From contig JANWIJ010000037.1 of the NCBI GenBank assembly GCA_025449935.1, positions 2,055-66,054 of the forward strand: DNA of 64,000 nt. The letters are read 5' to 3'. The translations under genes were made by a program, and so were the position numbers. Positions 2,240-56,946 of this stretch are shown piece by piece. The stretch's first letter is position 1, and every line of letters starts with the position of its first letter. The DNA is from Chitinophagaceae bacterium. Lineage in GTDB: Bacteria; Bacteroidota; Bacteroidia; Chitinophagales; Chitinophagaceae. Below the pieces are notes generated by a model, which saw only the letters and a program-made list of their open reading frames with translations, did no database searches and had not been told where the DNA came from.

Positions 2240-4713
2240 AGGTGGAAGAAACAAAAGGATTCAGGGTGATCAATGAGTGGCTGGCCGCGAATGAGCGGCA
2301 TCCTTTTTTATTTCAGCTCCAGGCATGGCAGCATATTGTTAACCGGGAAAGTGGCCTTGTCAATGCACCAACCGGCTGTGGAAAAACCTACTCTGTTTTT
2401 TTGGGTGCAATAATCCAGTTCATCAACCAGCATCCCGGCTACTATCACAGTAAGAAGGATAGTGGTCTGCAGCTCCTCTGGATAACTCCCCTGCGGGCAT
2501 TGGCTAAAGATATTGGCCGGGCTATGGAAGAAGTGATTGCCGGGTTGGGCATGAGTTGGAAAGTAGGGATCAGGAACGGGGACACCCCGCTGGCCGAACG
2601 GGCTAAACAGAAACGGCAGATGCCCGAAGTCCTTATCATCACTCCCGAAAGCCTGCATTTGTTACTCGCACAAAAAGGATATGCTGAAGTTTTCCGGTCA
2701 CTCGAAATTATAGCCGTGGATGAATGGCATGAATTGCTTGGCAGTAAACGGGGCGTGCAGGTGGAACTCGCCATATCCAGGATCGTGAACAGCCAGGGTA
2801 AATTGACAAATGGGAAACCAGCCCTTTGGGGTATTTCGGCGACCATTGGAAACCTGGAGGAAGCCAAAGATGTGTTATTATCGCCGGTTAGGCAGACGGG
2901 GATTATTATTAAGGCTAATATTCAAAAGAAAATAGAAGTTGAATCGGTCATCCCCGATGAAATAGAAAAATACCCCTGGGCAGGACATTTGGGAATCCGG
3001 CTGGCCCATAAACTTATTCCCATTATTCTCCAAAGCAAAACAACACTCATCTTTATTAATACAAGAGGGATGAGTGAAACATGGTACCAGACCTTATTGA
3101 ATGTTTGTCCTGACCTTGCCGGATCTATTGCACTTCATCACGGCTCAATCGATATGGAACTGCGTGCCTGGATAGAAGACAACCTGCATACCGGGAACCT
3201 GAAAGCGGTTGTGTGCACCGCGAGCCTTGACCTGGGCGTTGATTTTCGTCCTGTTGAAACAGTCGTCCAGGTAGGGTCACCAAAAGGCGTAGCCCGGTTT
3301 TTACAACGTGCAGGCAGAAGCGGTCACAGCCCCGATGCTACGAGTAAAATATATTTTCTCCCAACCCACTCACTGGAGCTGATAGAAGCCGCAGCCTTAA
3401 AATCGGCCATGTCGGAAAATCTTATAGAAAGCCGACCACCCATGATGCTTTGCTATGATGTGTTGTTGCAATTCCTGAGCACACTGGCCATCTCGGATGG
3501 TTTTTCCCAGGAAGAAACATACGCGGAAGTTGTTTCTACTTTTTGCTACCAGCATTTAACGAAGGATGAATGGCAGCAGATACTCTACTTTGTTACTGAA
3601 GGGGGTCATGCCATGCACCAGTATGACGATTTTAAAAAAATAGAACTGGAAGATGGGTTATACAAAATAAAGAGCCGTAAAGTAGCGATGCGGCACCGTA
3701 TGCATATCGGAACCATTGTGAGTTCATCGATGATGAAAGTAAAATTCATTACAGGTGGTTATATAGGTGTAATAGAAGAGTTTTTCATATCAAGGCTCGA
3801 CCCCGGCGATGTATTTACACTGGCCGGAAGAAATCTTGAATTCCTGATGATAAAAGATATGACGGCGCTTGTAAAAAAGTCCGGCTCAAAAAAATCAATT
3901 ATACCCAGCTGGGATGGTGGCCGTATGCCCCTGAGTGCCAACCTTGGAAAGAAACTAAGGGAAACCCTGGACCGCTCAGCAACGGGGGCCCTGAAACCCG
4001 GAGAGAATGAGCTCAGGTCACTTCAACCTCTTTTCGAATTGCAGCAACTGCTTTCGCATGTCCCAAAACAGCATGAATTACTGATAGAGCAAATTGAAAC
4101 AAAAGACGGTTTTCACCTTTTTGTGTACCCGTTCGAAGGAAGGCTGGTCCACGAAGCCATGGCCGCGATCCTGGCATTCCGGATCAGCCTGATCCGTCCT
4201 ATCACTTTTTCATTTGCCATGAATGATTATGGATTTGAACTGCTGAGTGATCAACCCATCCCTGTTGATGATACGAACGTGTATGACCTGTTTTCACCGG
4301 CTGACCTGCTGAACGATATACAGCGAAGTGTGAACAGTACCGAAATGGCGAAAAGAAAATTCAGGGATGTGGCCGTGATCGGCGGGCTGATTTTCCAGGG
4401 TATGCCCGGAGAAAAGAAGAAAGCCCGCCATCTCCAGTCATCCGCCTCACTTCTTTTCAATGTGTTTGCAGAATATGATAAAGACAATCTCCTGCTTCGC
4501 CAGGCTTACCAGGAAGTGTTTGATCAGCAAATGGAGGAAGTGAGGCTGCGGGATATGCTGGAAAGAATTCAGCACTCCAAAATCGTTCTAACCTTCCCGG
4601 AACGGCTAACGCCTTTTTGTTTCCCGATAAAAGTGGATAGTATGCGGGAAGATCTTTCTTCAGAAAAACTGGAAGACCGGGTAAAAAAGATGCAACAGCA
4701 GCTGGAATTCTGA
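2236..4713 (+). CDS. Ligase-associated DEXH-box helicase (Lhr-core-like)
   Basis: Walker A APTGCGKT, DEWH box, SATIGN, HHGS and QRAGRSGH. ATGA overlap with the ligase gene. Confidence 0.95.
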   Translation: MKVEETKGFRVINEWLAANERHPFLFQLQAWQHIVNRESGLVNAPTGCGKTYSVFLGAIIQFINQHPGYYHSKKDSGLQLLWITPLRALAKDIGRAMEEVIAGLGMSWKVGIRNGDTPLAERAKQKRQMPEVLIITPESLHLLLAQKGYAEVFRSLEIIAVDEWHELLGSKRGVQVELAISRIVNSQGKLTNGKPALWGISATIGNLEEAKDVLLSPVRQTGIIIKANIQKKIEVESVIPDEIEKYPWAGHLGIRLAHKLIPIILQSKTTLIFINTRGMSETWYQTLLNVCPDLAGSIALHHGSIDMELRAWIEDNLHTGNLKAVVCTASLDLGVDFRPVETVVQVGSPKGVARFLQRAGRSGHSPDATSKIYFLPTHSLELIEAAALKSAMSENLIESRPPMMLCYDVLLQFLSTLAISDGFSQEETYAEVVSTFCYQHLTKDEWQQILYFVTEGGHAMHQYDDFKKIELEDGLYKIKSRKVAMRHRMHIGTIVSSSMMKVKFITGGYIGVIEEFFISRLDPGDVFTLAGRNLEFLMIKDMTALVKKSGSKKSIIPSWDGGRMPLSANLGKKLRETLDRSATGALKPGENELRSLQPLFELQQLLSHVPKQHELLIEQIETKDGFHLFVYPFEGRLVHEAMAAILAFRISLIRPITFSFAMNDYGFELLSDQPIPVDDTNVYDLFSPADLLNDIQRSVNSTEMAKRKFRDVAVIGGLIFQGMPGEKKKARHLQSSASLLFNVFAEYDKDNLLLRQAYQEVFDQQMEEVRLRDMLERIQHSKIVLTFPERLTPFCFPIKVDSMREDLSSEKLEDRVKKMQQQLEF

Positions 4714-4762
4714 CGGTGCCCTGTTTTCTAAGAACGGCGCGTTATATTTGTCCTCCCTTTGA

Positions 4763-5431
4763 ATGCAAAATCCTTTTCCACATATCATTTATAAAAATAC
4801 CTTTTGGGTTTCTTCTGAACGTTGTGTATGGTGGGAAGAAGAAAACACCCTGATTGTATCAGACCTTCACCTGGGAAAGACCGGTCATTTCCGGAAATCG
4901 GGTATTGGGGTACCCCAGGGTATTTACAAAGCCGACCTGCAACGCCTGATGGCCCAGCTTTATTTTTTTAAAGCTGACCGGCTGATCATCGTTGGCGACC
5001 TTACCCATAGTACAGAGAACAGGGAGCTGGATCATTTTAAAAAATGGAGAAAGGATTTTTCTTTATTACATATTGACCTGGTAAAGGGGAATCATGATAT
5101 ATTGACAGACACCTGGTATGATGACACCGGCATTGATGTCTCAGCCCATCACCTGGTAGTAAAGGATTTTTGTTTCCGTCATGACCTGAAGATTAAGCAC
5201 AAAGAAACGCTTCCGGATGGGATCGTTTATACGTTTGTGGGTCATGTGCATCCGGGTGTAACTGTGAAAGGTAAGGGCAGGCAAACACTTCGTTTTCCCT
5301 GTTTTTATTTTACAGCGGAGCATTGCATCCTTCCTGCCTTCAGTCGTTTTACCGGAACCTATTCAGTAGAAAGGCAAAAAAATGAAACGGTGTATGCAAT
5401 CGCCGGGAACCAGCTAATGCATATTTTGTAA
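4763..5431 (+). CDS. pdeM: Ligase-associated metallophosphoesterase/endonuclease PdeM
   Basis: Calcineurin-like motifs SDLHLGK, GDL, GNHD, GHVHP and LPAFS. Cluster position fits. TATATTTG promoter element at 4743-4750. Confidence 0.92.
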   Translation: MQNPFPHIIYKNTFWVSSERCVWWEEENTLIVSDLHLGKTGHFRKSGIGVPQGIYKADLQRLMAQLYFFKADRLIIVGDLTHSTENRELDHFKKWRKDFSLLHIDLVKGNHDILTDTWYDDTGIDVSAHHLVVKDFCFRHDLKIKHKETLPDGIVYTFVGHVHPGVTVKGKGRQTLRFPCFYFTAEHCILPAFSRFTGTYSVERQKNETVYAIAGNQLMHIL

Positions 5432-6847: not shown

Positions 6848-7020
6848 GACATCTTTTTTTCGGAGTTTGAAACAATCGTTTTGGGTGGTCAAATTTACGC
6901 AAAACCACCCTGCTACAAGAAGAATTATAAGAAAATTGAAATTTGTTATTGCTCGATGCAATACTTCAGAATAGTTGGGACCTGAAAATTTTAAGGGAAC
7001 CAGTAAGAAGTGAGAAGCAA

Positions 7021-8118
7021 CTATTTAGGTGTGCGGCGATACAACCAGTAAGCTACCCCTGAGAATGCAATATTGGGTAACCAGGCAGCGATGATCGGAG
7101 GAAAATTTCCTTTTGTCGCAAAAACGGTGGAGAAGCGGTCAGAAACAATAAAAAAAGCTGCTATGGCAATCCCCAAAGCCAGGTGCATTCCGCTTCCGCC
7201 ACGGCTCCGCCGGCTGGCAATGGTTGCCCCAATTATTGTGAGCAATAAAACAGCGGCGGGGGTAGCTGTTCTCCTGTACCTCTCCACTTTCAATGCCCTT
7301 AACCCTTCATTGCCCCTGAACTCTTCCTGCCTGATATACTGCACTAATTCCGGGGTGGTGAGTTTATCTTTCAGGTAATCATCCTTTCGCAGTTCCCCCG
7401 GCTTTAATGACAGGTTAATACTCATCGTGTCGTGGAAGGTCAGCCGTTCTCCCATACTGTCAATAAGCCGTTCTTCTGCATTATATAATTTCCAACTTTT
7501 CCGGGCGGTATCCCAGGTAATGGTCTCCGACCTTAAGTTGTATACAACTTTGTTGTCTTTGATCCTTTCCAGGAAGAAACCCCTGGCTGATTTACTGCTG
7601 GTATCAAAATCCCTGATACCCACATAGGTGTTGGAATCAGTTCTCCTGTAATAGCATCTGTCACAATTACCTGCAAAACGGTTCTTGGTCGGATCATTCT
7701 TGTCGATATAGGTACTTTGAAAATCACTCCGGATAATATTCGCTTTGGGAATCCAGTAGCGGTTACCCATCCATAAAGTGGCCGCCAGCAGCAAACCCCC
7801 GACAATATAGGGGCGCAGGAACCTGTTATAACTGGTACCGCTGGCCAGTATGGCAATGATCTCTGACCGGGTGGCCATCCGGCTGGTGAAGAAAATAACA
7901 GCGATAAAAACAAACAAAGGGAATAACAGGCTCCAGATGAAAGGAACAAAACCCAGGTAATATTTTGTAATGATCTGGGAGGTGGAAAGATTGGCCTTGA
8001 CAAAATCATCCGTCTTCTCACTGCTGTCAACAGCTACAGCAATAATGCTGAACAACAACATGCAAAATATAAACGTGACAATAAATTTCTTCAGTATATA
8101 CCAGTCAATTTTCCGCAT
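7021..8118 (-). CDS. LptF/LptG family LPS export permease
   Basis: Three N-terminal TM helices, [10 protein letters not shown] motif, periplasmic domain, three C-terminal TM helices ending AWLPN. Confidence 0.9.
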
Positions 8119-11177: not shown

Positions 11178-11196
11178 ATTACCACTTTGGGGTATT
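11178..11196 (+). promoter_or_regulatory. Putative operator (TACCAC-N3-GGGGTA) over the -33 region of the response-regulator promoter
   Basis: Sequence ATTACCACTTTGGGGTATT resembles the palindrome at 11919-11938. Its right end lies 22 nt before a -7-like element (GACCTTTG, 11218-11225). Confidence 0.5.
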
Positions 11197-11230
11197 GGTA
11201 TAGTCTTTCTGAAGGCTGACCTTTGCACAA

Positions 11231-11875
11231 ATGAGGCAAATTTCTGTTTGTATCGTAGATGATAACCGCGAGCTGCGTAATGCACTGGAGGAGATTTTAA
11301 GCATGTCGGAAGGATATAAATGCATAGGTACCATTGGTACGGCCGAAGACGCCATGACCCAGATACCTATATTAAGACCAGACGTTGTATTGATGGATAT
11401 AAACCTGGGAAGTGAAGAAAGCGGGATTGACTGTGTGAGGGTTTTGAAGCCACGAGTCCCGGATACAAATTTTATGATGTGTACGGTTTACGAAGAGAAT
11501 GAAAAGATATTTGAAGCATTAAGTGCAGGAGCCAGTGGTTATATTTTAAAAAAAACGGACCCAACTCGGATGCTGGAAGCGATCCGGGAATTGTATGAAG
11601 GAGGCGCTCCCATGAGCAGCCAGATTGCCCGCAAGGTTGTAGCGGCTTTCCAGAACCAGCAGTCGCACAGCCATAATGGGGCGGAAGAAATTGATATGTT
11701 ATCAAACAGGGAAAAGGAAATACTTGAATTTCTTTCTAAAGGCCTCATGTATAAAGAAATTGCTTCCCAGCTTTTTTTAAGTCCCGAGACAGTTCGTAAA
11801 CACGTCTACCACATTTACGAGAAACTGCATGTAAACAACCGGGTTGCTGCTGTCAACAAGTTCTACGGACGTTGA
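11231..11875 (+). CDS. NarL/LuxR-family response regulator (REC-HTH), no adjacent kinase
   Basis: IVDDN, phosphoacceptor in VLMDINL, GASGYILK, and LuxR HTH LSNREKEILEFLSKGLMYKEIA..TVRKHV. Confidence 0.95.
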   Translation: MRQISVCIVDDNRELRNALEEILSMSEGYKCIGTIGTAEDAMTQIPILRPDVVLMDINLGSEESGIDCVRVLKPRVPDTNFMMCTVYEENEKIFEALSAGASGYILKKTDPTRMLEAIRELYEGGAPMSSQIARKVVAAFQNQQSHSHNGAEEIDMLSNREKEILEFLSKGLMYKEIASQLFLSPETVRKHVYHIYEKLHVNNRVAAVNKFYGR

Positions 11876-11918
11876 TTTTTGCGGATTTTTCGGACAAATT
11901 CCAGCTTTATTAGCAAAA

Positions 11919-11938
11919 AATACCACTTATGTGGTATT
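11919..11938 (+). promoter_or_regulatory. Perfect palindromic operator AATACCAC-TTAT-GTGGTATT
   Basis: 8-bp inverted repeat seen directly. It resembles a NarL 7-2-7 site and ends 22 nt before TATTTTTG (11960-11967). Confidence 0.65.
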
Positions 11939-11972
11939 GTACCGCTTCTGCGGTCTTCCTATTTTTGAAACA

Positions 11973-12097
11973 CTAATGTGTTTTCTTCTTTATAACTGTT
12001 AACCATTAACCTTTAACCTACGAGTGTAAGCAAAAGAGGGGTTCTTTCAAAAACCTTCAGAAAGCCCCTGCAGGTAAGCTGCAGGGGCTTTTCTTTT
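11973..12097 (+). ncRNA. Candidate small RNA (or micropeptide mRNA)
   Basis: Consensus TAnnTTTG at 11960-11967, then ~125 nt with no ORF longer than 8 codons, then a 13-bp terminator stem with a + strand U-tract. The 5' end is estimated from the promoter position. Confidence 0.45.
12061..12097 (+). terminator. Intrinsic terminator between convergent units
   Basis: AAAGCCCCTGCAG-GTAAG-CTGCAGGGGCTTT followed by TCTTTT. Confidence 0.9.
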
Positions 12098-12112
12098 AAT
12101 TTCCGCGGTCAA

Positions 12113-14740: not shown

Positions 14741-14820
14741 GGAATGTGAGAATGTTGGAATGTGGGAATGTGAAAATAAGTCGTTTCAATTCATGCCTGA
14801 TTTTCTATTCTCACACTTCC
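14741..14820. repeat. Degenerate 8-nt tandem (GGAATGTG) with a reverse-complement partner
   Basis: ggaatgtg-agaatgtt-ggaatgtg-ggaatgtg at 14741-14772. The sequence attctcacacttcc at 14807-14820 can pair with it. Confidence 0.7.
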
Positions 14821-52432: not shown

Positions 52433-52514
52433 CCGGATGTGGTGGAATTGGTAGACACGTCAGACTTAGGATCTGATGCCGCAAGGTGTGGGGGTTCGAG
52501 TCCCTCCATCCGGA
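52433..52514 (+). tRNA. tRNA-Leu (anticodon TAG)
   Basis: Acceptor CCGGATG/CATCCGG with discriminator A. D-loop AATTGGTAGA. Anticodon stem TCAGA/TCTGA with TAG at 52467-52469. Long variable arm and T-loop TTCGAGT. CCA not encoded. Confidence 0.97.
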
Positions 52515-52521
52515 CAGGAAT

Positions 52522-52599
52522 AGTTTAGGGTTTTGTGTTTAAGGAATAAACCCGGTTAATTAAGAGCCAGCTCTAAACTCTAAACCCTAAACTTTAAAC
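52522..52599. repeat. 7-nt tandem (CTAAACT) with reverse-complement partner between the tRNA and tig
   Basis: AGTTTAGGGTTT (52522-52533) is the exact reverse complement of AAACCCTAAACT (52582-52593), which lies inside ctctaaactctaaaccctaaactttaaac. Confidence 0.7.
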
Positions 52600-55646: not shown

Positions 55647-55698
55647 ATAATTTTGTAGGTTACGAAGTTGGTGGTTCCCCGTTATACTTTAAGTTAAT

Positions 55699-56946
55699 AT
55701 GGCAAAAAATCCGTTGCATTGTTCGTTTTGTGGCCGCAGCCGCGATGAGGTGAAAATCCTTATTGCAGGCCAGGAAGGGCATATTTGTGAGAATTGCGTA
55801 GAGCATGCGCGTGAAATCATTGACCAGGAGTTAATGATTAAAGATGAAAAGATCTCTTCCTCCTTTAAACTGACTGTTAAGAAACCGGTTGAGGTTAAAA
55901 AATTCCTGGATGAATATGTGATTGGCCAGGATGAGGCCAAAAAAGTACTGGCCGTTGCGGTTTATAATCATTATAAAAGACTCCAGCAGAAAAATAATGA
56001 TCTTCCGGTAAGCACCAATGATGTGGAGATTGAAAAAAGTAACATTATCATGGTGGGTGAAACCGGCACGGGTAAGACTCTGCTGGCCAAAAGTATCGCC
56101 CGGATGCTGAATGTGCCGTTCACGATTGTGGATGCCACCGTATTTACAGAAGCAGGATATGTGGGGGAAGATGTGGAGAGCATTCTTACCCGGTTATTAC
56201 AGGTTTGCAATTACGACGTAGCTGCTGCGGAACGCGGCATTGTGTATATTGACGAAATAGACAAGATTGCCCGCAAAGGAGATAATCCATCCATTACCCG
56301 CGATGTTAGCGGTGAAGGGGTTCAGCAGGGAATGCTGAAGCTGCTGGAAGGTACGGATGTGCTGGTACCACCACAGGGTGGCAGGAAACATCCTGAGCAA
56401 AAACTCATTAAGATCAATACCCAGAATATTCTCTTTATTTGCGGTGGAGCTTTTGATGGCATCGATAAGATTATTGCACGCAGGGTGCAGACCAATACCA
56501 TTGGGTTTAACGTGGACAAAGAACTGCAGGAAAGCATGAAAAAGAACCTGCTTCGTTATGTAAATGCCACTGACCTCAAAGCTTTTGGACTTATTCCCGA
56601 ATTGCTGGGACGTTTACCTGTTGTCACACACCTCGACCCGCTGGATGCAGAGACATTAAGGGCTATCCTCACCGAACCCCGGAATGCGCTGGTTAAACAA
56701 TACAGGAAATTATTCGAATTGGAGAATATCCAGCTCAATATTGAAGAAGACGTTTTAGGCTTTATGGTAGAAAAGGCGATGGAATATAAACTCGGCGCCC
56801 GCGGTTTGCGCAGCATTTGTGAAGGAATCCTGACGGATGCCATGTACGAGCTGCCTTCCTCAAAAGAAACCCAGTTTACGCTTGACCTGGAATATGCCAA
56901 ACGTAAATTTGATAAGAGCAAACTCAGCTTGCTGAAAGTCGCTTAA
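55699..56946 (+). CDS. clpX: ATP-dependent Clp protease ATP-binding subunit ClpX
   Basis: C4 zinc finger (CSFCG..CENC), [31 protein letters not shown] and an IGF loop. Confidence 0.98.

What the first reader, a model, noticed from the sequence alone, without database searches (positions are those of the whole stretch)
11178..12097. Orphan NarL/LuxR regulator flanked by twin operators that drive itself and a ~125-nt non-coding unit
Seen: a perfect palindrome AATACCAC-TTAT-GTGGTATT (11919-11938) lies just downstream of the regulator, and a related site TACCAC-TTT-GGGGTATT (11180-11196) lies just upstream of it. In both, the GGTATT end sits exactly 22 nt before a Bacteroidota -7 element (TATTTTTG at 11960; GACCTTTG at 11218), so the right half-site overlaps the -33 TTG. 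The downstream promoter faces no gene: only ~125 nt with three TTAACC(A/T) repeats, then a 13-bp terminator. Known: NarL-type proteins bind TACYNMT heptamers in a 7-2-7 arrangement, which the downstream site nearly matches. Inference: an autoregulated response regulator whose main local output is an sRNA, comparable in logic to GacA-RsmY/Z or UvrY-CsrB, with the kinase encoded elsewhere. I cannot name a described Chitinophagaceae system with this layout.
Basis: partly seen in the sequence, partly recalled or inferred. Interest (0 to 1): 0.75.

Follow-up and report, generated by a model that had tools for sequence, protein, structure and literature searches.

The report
Response regulator with conserved neighbouring small RNA
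An orphan NarL-type response regulator of Chitinophagaceae and an undescribed ~125-nt non-coding RNA gene just downstream carry the same NarL-like palindromic site over their promoters in about 80 related genomes, which predicts a small two-component regulon whose RNA output has not yet been seen by experiment.

Summary
The layout is strongly conserved. In 80 syntenic Chitinophagaceae loci (regulator 70-87% identical), the regulator gene is preceded by TACC-N7-GGTATTG. The downstream unit is preceded by ATACCAC-N4-GTGGTATTG, a NarL-type 7-2-7 site. In both cases exactly 20 low-information bases follow, then a Bacteroidota -7 box.

The regulator's ATG lies 3-7 nt after its box, so its mRNA is predicted to be leaderless. 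The downstream unit is single-copy. It has no conserved reading frame and matches no Rfam family. Its conserved parts are a G-less core CCAUUAACCAUUAACCUU, a GGGGCCUUGAUC block, a moderately covarying long-range helix and a strongly covarying terminator.

A third promoter with the same site drives an outer-membrane beta-barrel gene in several genomes. A more distant lineage has the regulator and porin sites but no RNA.

Not shown: binding by this regulator, whether it activates or represses, the RNA 5' end, or any target. Metatranscriptome contigs cover the whole intergenic region and cannot resolve a start site.

Verdict: a real, new, family-wide small RNA gene in a predicted NarL-type regulon. 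It resembles GacA-Rsm in logic but is not a member of that system.

The parts
11180..11194 (.). Upstream operator TACC-N7-GGTA (7-1-7), centred about -43 from the predicted regulator start site. The promoter-proximal half GTGGTATTG is nearly invariant in relatives. The distal half is degenerate (TACCWS).
   Evidence: 78 of 80 loci; logo.
11195..11225 (+). Regulator promoter: -33 TTG (11195-11197), 20-nt spacer, non-canonical -7 box GACCTTTG (11218-11225). The predicted +1 is about 11230, one base before the ATG, so the mRNA is leaderless.
   Evidence: the ATG lies 3-7 nt (mode 4) after the box in all 80 loci. The box spans -12 to -5 according to PMC9723704.
11231..11875 (+). Orphan NarL/FixJ-type response regulator, 214 aa: receiver domain plus GerE helix-turn-helix. 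The acidic pocket residues (IVDD) and the LMD site align with the corresponding residues of DevR and VraR.
11874..11894 (+). Direct repeat GATTTTTGCG x2.2 starting at the stop codon, about -98 to -78 from the RNA start. It is visible in many of the downstream regions of relatives but not all. Function unknown.
11919..11938 (.). Downstream operator AATACCAC-TTAT-GTGGTATT, a NarL-type 7-2-7 perfect palindrome centred at -43.5 from the predicted RNA start. It is preceded by a conserved A tract.
   Evidence: (TACC-N8-GGTA in about 75 of 80 loci).
11937..11967 (+). RNA promoter: -33 TTG (11937-11939), 20-nt spacer (containing the window-specific hairpin 11940-11954), canonical -7 box TATTTTTG (11960-11967).
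   Evidence: the distance from GGTAT to the box is 22 nt in nearly all loci..
11972..12097 (+). Predicted non-coding RNA of about 126 nt. The covariance model hit spans 11969-12098 at 65 bits. It is single-copy in the window.
   Evidence: No Rfam family matched.
11999..12019 (+). G-less heptad repeats TTAACCA-TTAACCT-TTAACCT. The first two form the family-wide core CCAUUAACCAUUAACCUU. The third is specific to this genome.
12038..12055 (+). Conserved 3' block: GGGGTTCTTTCAAAAACC here, GGGGCCUUGAUCAAAAACC in most relatives. It is the 3' strand of the long-range helix P1. In this genome the best partner is UUCUUCUU at about 11985-11992, and the pairing is weak.
12060..12097 (+). Intrinsic terminator: 13-14 bp stem, 5-nt loop and T run. 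Upstream A runs in many relatives make it plausibly bidirectional, so it may also end the convergent M1 peptidase mRNA.
   Evidence: 95% of cells paired, 11 of 11 pairs with compensatory changes.

Best explanation
This is a small two-component regulon with an undescribed small RNA gene as one output.

Shown: three promoter classes share one design. They are the regulator's own gene, the RNA gene immediately downstream and, in several genomes, a nearby outer-membrane beta-barrel gene. Each has an A tract, then a TACC...GGTA dyad whose proximal arm runs into the -33 TTG, then exactly 20 bases, then a sigma-A -7 box.

Inferred: after phosphorylation by a kinase encoded elsewhere, the orphan NarL-type regulator binds these dyads as a dimer centred at about -43 or -43.5. 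That position is the one from which NarL activates napF and yeaR. The RNA promoter has the perfect 7-2-7 palindrome and a canonical -7 box, so it is probably the high-affinity, strongly expressed target. The regulator and porin promoters have a 7-1-7 site with a degenerate distal arm and mostly non-canonical -7 boxes, so they probably respond at higher regulator levels. For the regulator's own leaderless mRNA this would give positive autoregulation.

Inferred: the RNA starts near 11972 and ends at the terminator near 12097. A long-range helix closes a large loop that displays the G-less motif CCAUUAACCAUUAACCUU. The most likely action is base pairing of that motif with G/U-rich sites in mRNAs encoded elsewhere. 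No target has been identified. Read-through from the regulator gene probably also carries this sequence as a 3' UTR.
For: - **Conservation.** In 80 syntenic loci, 78 have the N7 site before the regulator and about 75 have the N8 site before the RNA.
- **Promoter-like information profile.** The dyad arms, the TTG and the -7 box are near-invariant, while the 20-nt spacer and the flanks carry almost no information. The spacing from GGTAT to the box is fixed at 22 nt.
- **Leaderless geometry** is conserved and fits the -12 to -5 box position reported in PMC9723704.
- **A third, independent promoter** with the same design precedes an OMP_b-brl gene in L002, L005, L007, L011 and L066, and in the metagenome loci L085-L088, L091-L093, L095 and L096.
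- **NarL parallel.** The site resembles NarL 7-2-7 sites, and NarL activates from the same position (PMC4549865). The regulator is a NarL/FixJ-type protein with an intact receiver.
- **The RNA.** It is single-copy, on the + strand only, with conserved blocks and no conserved reading frame. All 11 terminator pairs covary. Helix P1 is 77% paired, with a covariation score of 0.289 against 0.183 in shuffles (0 of 500 reached it) and 0.13-0.14 when partners are slid by one column. A cognate duplex test gave Wilcoxon p = 5e-7.
- **Transcription.** The region is present in at least 8 metatranscriptome assemblies.
Against: - No experiment or read-level data show a 5' end at about 11972. Metatranscriptome contigs run from the regulator's 3' end through the operator and promoter into the RNA body, at the same low depth (2-6) as the flanking genes. 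They have no direction and may include DNA.
- Synteny is invariant, so linkage of the RNA to the regulator rather than to the M1 peptidase rests only on the shared operator.
- Binding by this regulator, rather than another TACC-recognising protein, is inferred.
- The sign of regulation is unknown. The RNA promoter has near-consensus -33 and -7 elements, which is more typical of a repressed promoter than an activator-dependent one.
- Helix P1 is weak or absent in some clades, including this window. The covariation counts come from an alignment fitted to the model.
- No significant pairing was found with the porin mRNA or with any leader in the window.
Confidence: 0.6

Rival explanations
1. There is no independent RNA gene. 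The 220 nt after the stop codon are simply the regulator mRNA's 3' UTR and terminator. The palindrome acts on that transcript, for example as a protein roadblock or an RNA hairpin, or it serves only the neighbouring genes.
For: There is no terminator between the regulator stop codon and the palindrome. Metatranscriptome contigs span the stop codon, the operator and the RNA body without a break, at the same depth as the flanks.
Against: A complete sigma-A promoter lies in front of the RNA. Its canonical TAnnTTTG box sits at a fixed 20-nt spacing from a TTG and is as conserved as the operator, while the sequence between them is free to vary. The same operator-promoter design drives two protein genes. 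The palindrome loop and flanks do not behave like a conserved RNA hairpin. The half-sites are conserved as DNA words, with N7 or N8 spacing according to promoter class.
Confidence: 0.15
2. The regulon is real, but the regulator represses instead of activating. The dimer overlaps the -33 element and blocks RNA polymerase. The RNA, the regulator and the porin are expressed when the regulator is unphosphorylated.
For: The proximal arm physically overlaps the -33 TTG. The RNA promoter has near-consensus core elements, so it may not need an activator. NarL represses frdA from a 7-2-7 site (PMC4549865).
Against: The centre at -43 to -43.5 matches the NarL-activated napF and yeaR sites. The regulator promoters and most of the porin promoters lack the TA of the -7 box, as activator-dependent promoters often do.
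Confidence: 0.25
3. The shared dyad is recognised by a different transcription factor encoded elsewhere. The adjacent regulator is just one of its targets.
For: No binding data exist. TACC/GGTA half-sites are used by many GerE-family proteins. Bacteroidota genomes encode many NarL-type regulators: 7755 hits at E <= 1e-30 among 8000 scored candidates.
Against: The dyad sits in front of this regulator's own gene in 78 of 80 genomes, and also in the 59%-identical ortholog L092. That is the usual signature of autoregulation. The site type fits this protein's family.
Confidence: 0.12
4. The RNA works as a decoy rather than by antisense pairing. Its two or three UUAACC heptads mimic the same-sense motif in mRNA leaders and titrate a factor, a protein or another RNA, that binds them. 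This would resemble CsrB/RsmZ or target-mimic sponge RNAs.
For: Leaders of the co-regulated porin gene carry same-sense near-copies of the core. For example, L002 has UUAACAAUUAAACCUAU against UUAACCAUUAACCUAU in the RNA. Cognate local-alignment p values were 0.002-0.004 in 3 of 5 lineages. The rsmI leaders of L017 and L043 read CCAATTAACCAATTAACCATG and similar.
Against: G-less tandem heptads or octads occur in several unrelated leaders and intergenic arrays in this family (L052, L026, window 14741-14777). The resemblance may therefore reflect a general leader composition. No binding factor is known. Only 5 lineages could be compared, and two of them gave no signal.
Confidence: 0.15

Closest known systems
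NarL/NarP acting at 7-2-7 sites (E. coli napF, yeaR, frdA)
   Same: The protein architecture is the same (receiver + GerE helix-turn-helix). Both use inverted heptamers beginning with TACC, separated by 2 bp. The family consensus TACCACAAAAGTGGTA compares with the engineered NarL site TACCCCTAAAGGGGTA. The site centre near -43 or -44 overlaps the upstream promoter element, as at napF (-40 to -49) and yeaR (-38 to -47) (PMC4549865).
   Different: The protein is not a NarL ortholog (NCBIfam NarL model 124 bits against a cut-off of 250). There is no adjacent kinase and no nitrate-related gene. The promoter is of the Bacteroidota -33/-7 type. A systematic 7-1-7 variant is used at the regulator's own promoter and the porin promoter. 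One output is a non-coding RNA.
GacA/UvrY/VarA driving RsmY/Z, CsrB/C
   Same: A NarL-family response regulator is predicted to drive a small non-coding RNA through a palindromic upstream site. The RNA carries a short repeated single-stranded motif.
   Different: The regulator fails the UvrY/SirA/GacA model (110 bits against 280). The operator overlaps the -33 element, whereas from memory the GacA box lies further upstream. The repeat is UUAACC in 2-3 copies, not many GGA hairpin loops. The RNA gene lies immediately downstream of the regulator gene. Whether these genomes encode CsrA was not tested.
Envelope-linked regulator-to-sRNA circuits (OmpR-OmrA/B, CpxR-CpxQ, sigma-E-MicA/RybB) and VraR/LiaR-type regulators
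   Same: A signalling regulator co-controls a small RNA and an outer-membrane protein gene. The closest solved relatives of the regulator include VraR. The RNA sits in or beyond the 3' UTR region of a regulatory gene.
   Different: No pairing between the RNA and the porin mRNA was detected. The stimulus is unknown. From general knowledge, Hfq, which those circuits depend on, is usually considered lacking in Bacteroidota. That was not tested here.
Described Bacteroidota small RNAs (for example Rfp18 of Flavobacterium psychrophilum, PMC9723704; GibS of Bacteroides, from memory)
   Same: It is a stand-alone RNA of about 100-150 nt with a sigma-A -7 promoter, an intrinsic terminator and a single-stranded candidate seed. 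It is conserved within a family or genus.
   Different: There is no sequence or model similarity to any Rfam entry. It belongs to a different family (Chitinophagaceae). Here a specific transcriptional regulator and operator can be proposed from sequence alone.

Membership tests
NarL/FixJ (LuxR-type) response regulators | N-terminal receiver domain with the phospho-acceptor pocket, plus a C-terminal GerE/LuxR helix-turn-helix | tested here: met
   Pfam Response_reg 1.4e-22 and GerE 7.2e-19. The protein aligns over its full length to DevR, VraR and NarL structures, with the DD pair and the LMD aspartate matching the corresponding residues.
NarL orthologs (nitrate/nitrite regulator) | Score above the curated equivalog cut-off | tested here: not met
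   NF007935 scored 124.4 bits against a cut-off of 250. NarP scored 109.6 against 343.
NarL-type 7-2-7 operator | Two inverted heptamers beginning with TAC, separated by 2 bp | tested here: met
   The window site is TACCACT-TA-TGTGGTA. About 75 of 80 relatives have TACC-N8-GGTA at the RNA promoter. Compared with TACCCCTAAAGGGGTA (PMC4549865). The regulator's own site is 7-1-7, so it does not meet this feature.
NarL-type 7-2-7 operator | Bound by the phosphorylated regulator dimer | not testable with these tools
   This needs EMSA, footprinting or ChIP.
GacA/UvrY-Rsm/Csr system | Regulator belongs to the UvrY/SirA/GacA equivalog | tested here: not met
   NF007018 scored 110 bits against a cut-off of 280.
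GacA/UvrY-Rsm/Csr system | RNA carries many GGA motifs in hairpin loops and matches the CsrB/RsmY/RsmZ models | tested here: not met
   No Rfam match appeared even at E <= 10. The conserved repeat is the G-less UUAACC, in 2-3 copies.
GacA/UvrY-Rsm/Csr system | A CsrA/RsmA protein is present as the RNA's partner | not tested
   Only 64 kb of this genome was available. No CsrA search was made.
Stand-alone trans-acting small RNA | Own promoter, own terminator, no conserved reading frame, conservation independent of the flanking coding sequences | tested here: met
   The promoter logo and fixed spacing, the covarying terminator, the absence of a conserved ATG or frame in the alignment, and one copy per locus.
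Stand-alone trans-acting small RNA | A discrete primary transcript is observed | tested here: inconclusive
   Metatranscriptome contigs cover the region but also the promoter and the flanks, at depth 2-6 and without strand information.
Stand-alone trans-acting small RNA | An identified base-pairing target | tested here: inconclusive
   The best site in the window is the clpX leader at -22.1 kcal/mol, but the next best is -21.5. The porin mRNA gave no signal.
Bacteroidota sigma-A promoter | -33 TTG and -7 TAnnTTTG separated by about 19-21 nt | tested here: met
   TTG, then 20 nt, then TATTTTTG in the window. TA.tTTtG in 76 relatives. The consensus and its -12 to -5 position are taken from PMC9723704.

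The most novel reading that the evidence does not exclude
The RNA is a Csr/Rsm-like sponge built on a different code. Its tandem UUAACC heptads copy a leader motif found in front of the co-regulated porin gene and some other genes. It would titrate an unknown leader-binding factor, either an RNA-binding protein or part of the Shine-Dalgarno-independent initiation machinery. The regulator would then control translation of a set of mRNAs indirectly, in a phylum where Shine-Dalgarno pairing is not used (PMC6847099, abstract) and where, from general knowledge, CsrA and Hfq are usually considered lacking.
Probability: 0.12. Interest if true: 0.85.

Novelty: new member of a known kind. Interest (0 to 1): 0.6.

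Why it matters
Very few small RNAs of Bacteroidota have a known transcriptional regulator, and I found no described one in Chitinophagaceae, a family abundant in soil, freshwater and activated sludge. Sequence comparison alone gives here:
- a new RNA family, ready for a covariance model;
- its promoter;
- a candidate cognate regulator with a defined operator in two spacing variants;
- a second protein-coding target.

That makes a compact regulon that can be tested directly with EMSA, promoter fusions and a Northern blot in any cultured Terrimonas or relative. It would also give a foothold for finding the missing kinase and its signal, and for learning how small RNAs work in a phylum without Shine-Dalgarno-based initiation.

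Tried and rejected
- **Rfam.** I searched at gathering thresholds and at E <= 10, on the window and on 17 relatives. Only terminator-driven noise came back.
- **RNAalifold on plain MAFFT alignments.** It found nothing, or only the terminator, because indels misalign the 5' strand. I replaced it with a duplex test and a model-guided alignment.
- **RNA evidence.** There are no RNA runs for the window itself. Contigs from 12 RNA-labelled runs were uninformative about 5' ends.
- **Porin mRNA as an antisense target.** Rejected: z scores from -1.1 to +1.2 in 6 genomes.
- **clpX leader as a target.** It is the top site in the window but not an outlier, and it depends on the window-specific third repeat. 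I kept it only as a lead.
- **Searches for complements of the seed** in all loci gave nothing consistent.
- **Small peptide in the RNA.** The only ORF I read in the window's RNA is the 8-codon MCFLLYNC, and the relatives have no conserved ATG or frame.
- **A minus-strand gene.** Rejected: minus-strand model hits cover only the terminator palindrome.
- **Extra copies of the RNA or the operator** in the 64-kb window: none.
- **Homolog list for the regulator.** It returned only close orthologs, so it did not extend the phylogenetic range.
- **Literature searches** found no description of this system.
Full report
**1. Observation**

- the perfect palindrome AATACCAC-TTAT-GTGGTATT at 11919-11938;
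- the related site TACCAC-TTT-GGGGTATT at 11180-11196;
- the -7-type boxes TATTTTTG (11960-11967) and GACCTTTG (11218-11225), each starting 22 nt after the end of GGTATT;
- three TTAACC heptads at 11999-12019;
- a 13-14 bp terminator hairpin with a T run at 12060-12097.

The spacing puts a TTG at 11937-11939 and at 11195-11197, each followed by a 20-nt spacer. The palindrome core occurs once in the window, against 0.02 expected by chance. Only these two places in 64 kb combine both half-sites with the downstream promoter geometry.

The gene between the sites encodes a 214-aa Response_reg + GerE protein. It is flanked by rsmG and a convergent M1 peptidase.

- The upstream site has one base fewer between its arms (TACC-N7-GGTA) than the downstream site (TACC-N8-GGTA).
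- A second imperfect palindrome, TACCGCTTCTGCGGT, fills part of the RNA promoter spacer.

**2. Conservation**

A scan of one genome per species returned 80 loci whose regulator is 70-87% identical. All are Chitinophagaceae or unclassified Bacteroidota. All keep the gene order tgt(-), GT2, rsmG, regulator, M1 peptidase(-), rsmI(-). None has a kinase in the 4-kb flanks.

- In 78 of 80 loci, the regulator gene is preceded by TACC-N7-GGTATTG.
- In about 75 of 80 loci, the region after its stop codon holds ATACCAC-N4-G(T/G)GGTATTG.

I anchored the sequences on GGTAT and built information profiles. They look like promoters. An A tract, the two arms, the TTG and the -7 box are near-invariant, while the 20 bases between TTG and the box, and the sequence beyond, carry almost no information. 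The distance from GGTAT to the box is 22 nt in nearly every locus.

The two promoter classes differ consistently:
- The RNA promoter has an invariant distal arm (ATACCAC), a slightly variable proximal arm and a canonical TAnnTTTG box.
- The regulator promoter has an invariant proximal arm (GTGGTATTG), a degenerate distal arm (TACCWS) and a box without the TA (GAAcTTTg/a).

**3. Start sites**

In Flavobacterium the sigma-A box TAnnTTTG occupies -12 to -5 (PMC9723704). Applying that here:
- The RNA would start at about 11972.
- The regulator mRNA would start at about 11230, one base before the ATG at 11231.

No upstream in-frame start exists in the window. In all 80 loci the ATG lies 3-7 nt (mode 4) after the box. 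The regulator mRNA is therefore predicted to be leaderless. That class made up only 5.5% of mRNAs in F. psychrophilum.

The dyad centres fall at about -43 (regulator) and -43.5 (RNA).

**4. A third promoter**

Scanning the flanks for further dyads found the same design in front of a 235-238-aa signal-peptide protein of the OMP_b-brl family. The design is (A)ATACC-N7-GGTATTG, 20 nt, then a TTTG-ended -7-type box. The gene lies between the M1 peptidase and rsmI in L002, L005, L007, L011 and, with a degenerate left arm, L066.

A metagenome scan with these proteins added more cases with the site (L085, L086 half-site, L087, L088, L091, L092, L093, L095, L096). A few homologs lack it (L089, L090, L097, L098).

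This promoter is independent of the regulator-RNA pair. It therefore strengthens the reading of the dyad as an operator for a trans-acting factor.

L092 is a syntenic but more distant ortholog (regulator 59% identical). It has the site before the regulator and before the porin, but only a terminator after the regulator gene and no RNA unit. So the RNA is one output of the regulon, found in the lineages closer to the window, and not its defining part. The window has no porin gene at this position.

**5. Who binds?**

This step is inferred. Three things point to the adjacent regulator:
- The dyad sits in front of its own gene across the whole family and beyond.
- The protein is a NarL/FixJ-type regulator with an intact receiver. 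Its best solved relatives are DevR, VraR and NarL.
- NarL output domains prefer inverted heptamers 2 bp apart, the '7-2-7' arrangement. The engineered NarL site is TACCCCTAAAGGGGTA, and NarL activates napF and yeaR from 7-2-7 sites at -40 to -49 and -38 to -47 (PMC4549865).

The family consensus here is TACCACAAAAGTGGTA. It shares 13 of 16 bases with that NarL site and sits at the same position.

The protein is not an ortholog of NarL, NarP, GacA/UvrY or any other curated equivalog.

The sign of regulation is open. The position and the weak -7 boxes of the regulator promoters and most porin promoters suggest activation. The near-consensus RNA promoter and the overlap with the -33 element would also allow repression. 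NarL itself represses frdA from a 7-2-7 site.

**6. The RNA**

Alignment of 66 non-identical copies shows this order:
- a variable 5' part;
- the core ACCATTAACCATTAACCTT;
- a variable stretch, sometimes with an inserted hairpin;
- GCAAGCAAAC;
- GGGGCCTTGATCAAAAACCGTC;
- an A run;
- a terminator whose sequence changes freely while it stays a hairpin.

There is no conserved ATG or reading frame. A profile HMM and a covariance model each find one + strand copy per locus, and one in the window at 11969-12098 (65 bits). Minus-strand hits cover only the terminator palindrome. No Rfam family matches.

Structure:
- **Terminator.** It is 95% paired, and all 11 pairs show compensatory changes.
- **Long-range helix P1.** The 5' AAUCAAG...CCCC pairs with GGGG.CUUGAUU. 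It is 77% paired. Its covariation score is 0.289, against 0.183 in column shuffles (0 of 500 reached it) and 0.13-0.14 when partners are slid by one column. One example of a compensatory switch is AUCAAG/CUUGAU to GAUUAG/CUAAUC.
- **Caveat.** That alignment was fitted to the model.
- **Independent test.** Cognate 5'/3' duplexes were more stable than shuffled ones (mean z -1.07, 24 of 62 below -1.64, Wilcoxon p = 5e-7).
- **Exceptions.** The helix is weak or replaced by a local hairpin in some clades. In the window itself the best pairing is UUCUUCUU with AAGAGGGG.

P1 would close a large loop that displays the G-less core. The window RNA folds with z = -3.3, mostly because of the terminator.

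**7. Is it transcribed on its own?**

This is unresolved.
- No RNA run holds the window's own sequence.
- For two relatives, several wastewater, sludge and freshwater metatranscriptome assemblies contain the region.
- The contigs run from the last bases of the regulator gene through the operator and promoter into the RNA body. Examples on L029 are 4628-4795, 4658-4804 and 4639-4856, where the predicted start is about 4745.
- Their depth is 2-6, similar to contigs on the regulator and peptidase genes.
- Contigs have no direction, may contain DNA, and were selected for holding this stretch.

They show that read-through from the regulator gene is plausible, since there is no terminator in between. 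They neither confirm nor exclude an internal start. The case for an independent start rests on the conserved full promoter.

**8. What does the RNA do?**

No target was identified.
- Pairing with the co-regulated porin mRNA is no better than with shuffled sequence.
- The best site in the window is the clpX leader (55654-55677, -22.1 kcal/mol). The next best site scores -21.5, and the interaction relies on the window-specific third heptad.

One observation is unexplained. Porin leaders carry same-sense near-copies of the RNA core. For example, L002 has UUAACAAUUAAACCUAU against UUAACCAUUAACCUAU, and L007 and L011 have UUAACCUUAAA(A). Cognate alignment p values were 0.002-0.004 in three of five lineages. 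The rsmI leaders of L017 and L043 read ...CCAATTAACCAATTAACCATG.

This could mean that the RNA mimics a leader element and titrates whatever binds it. However, G-less tandem heptads or octads turn up in other leaders and intergenic arrays of this family (L052, L026; window 14741-14777 CACATTCY x4). The resemblance may therefore be compositional.

I rank the possibilities this way: antisense pairing through the exposed core is most likely, a decoy role is the interesting minority reading, and a purely cis 3' UTR role is the conservative rival.

**9. Comparison and novelty**

- **Wiring.** It resembles GacA/UvrY-Rsm/Csr and other regulator-to-sRNA circuits.
- **Operator.** It is closest to NarL 7-2-7 sites.
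- **Membership.** It belongs to neither system. The regulator fails the GacA/UvrY and NarL equivalog cut-offs. The RNA has no GGA motifs and no Rfam match.

It is best filed as a new member of a known kind: a two-component regulator with a small-RNA output. The RNA family itself is undescribed, and I found no paper on it.

Interest is moderate to good. The prediction is unusually complete for a little-studied family (operator variants, leaderless autoregulated gene, RNA, porin), and it can be tested directly. The principle is familiar, and expression and function remain unproven.

Noticed in passing
L002:6894-7680, L005:6894-7676, L007:6074-6865, L011:~6950-7749, L066:~7080-7857; metagenome loci L085-L096: An outer-membrane beta-barrel gene (PF13505) lies between the M1 peptidase and rsmI. 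It carries the same TACC-N7-GGTATTG, 20 nt, -7 box promoter, so it is a third regulon member. The gene is absent from this position in the window.
   Followed up: yes
L092:1018-1800: This more distant syntenic ortholog (regulator 59% identical) has the dyad before the regulator and before the porin gene. After the regulator there is only a terminator and no RNA unit. A GAGCAAGCACAAAC stretch there resembles one block of the RNA.
   Followed up: partly
window 11874-11894: A direct repeat GATTTTTGCG x2.2 starts at the regulator's stop codon, about 80-100 nt upstream of the RNA start. The pattern TTTTGCnGGTTTTTGCGGG is visible in many of the downstream regions of relatives and absent from others. 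It is not a hairpin in most. Its function is unknown.
   Followed up: partly
window 11940-11954: A second imperfect palindrome, TACCGCTTCTGCGGT, lies directly after the operator, inside the -33/-7 spacer. It resembles the operator. In the family-wide promoter logo this spacer carries almost no information.
   Followed up: partly
window 14741-14777 (minus strand leader of rsmI); L017:~7458, L043:~8122; L052:691-760, 1826-1950, 3796, 4872-4920; L026:2092: G-poor tandem heptad or octad arrays lie in leaders and intergenic regions. The window has CACATTCY x4 before rsmI. L017 has CCAATTAACCAATTAACC directly before the rsmI ATG. L052 has long TTAAACC-type arrays, often as inverted pairs. They may be a family-wide leader or repeat element related to the RNA's UUAACC core.
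   Followed up: partly
window 55654-55677: The leader of clpX (ATG at 55699, after two clpP paralogs and a terminator) can pair with the RNA's heptad region over about 22 bp (-22.1 kcal/mol). It is the best non-self site in the window but only marginally better than the next (-21.5). It partly depends on the window-specific third heptad.
   Followed up: partly
proteins P0003, P0004, P0009, P0018, P0092 (227-230 aa forms of the regulator): Many public gene calls give the regulator a 14-15-residue N-terminal extension. In L081 (P0092) the called gene starts at 1501, inside the operator. The receiver domain alignment and the conserved box-to-ATG spacing favour the 213-214-aa leaderless form.
   Followed up: partly
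L031:4651-5400: Here about 750 nt, including a run of N, separates the regulator from the RNA unit, which stays next to the M1 peptidase. In L035 the reverse happens: the RNA stays next to the regulator and the peptidase is 1.8 kb away.
   Followed up: no
window 52433-52514 and 52571-52599: The only Rfam hit in the window is a tRNA. A CTCTAAA x4 tandem repeat follows about 57 nt after it.
   Followed up: no
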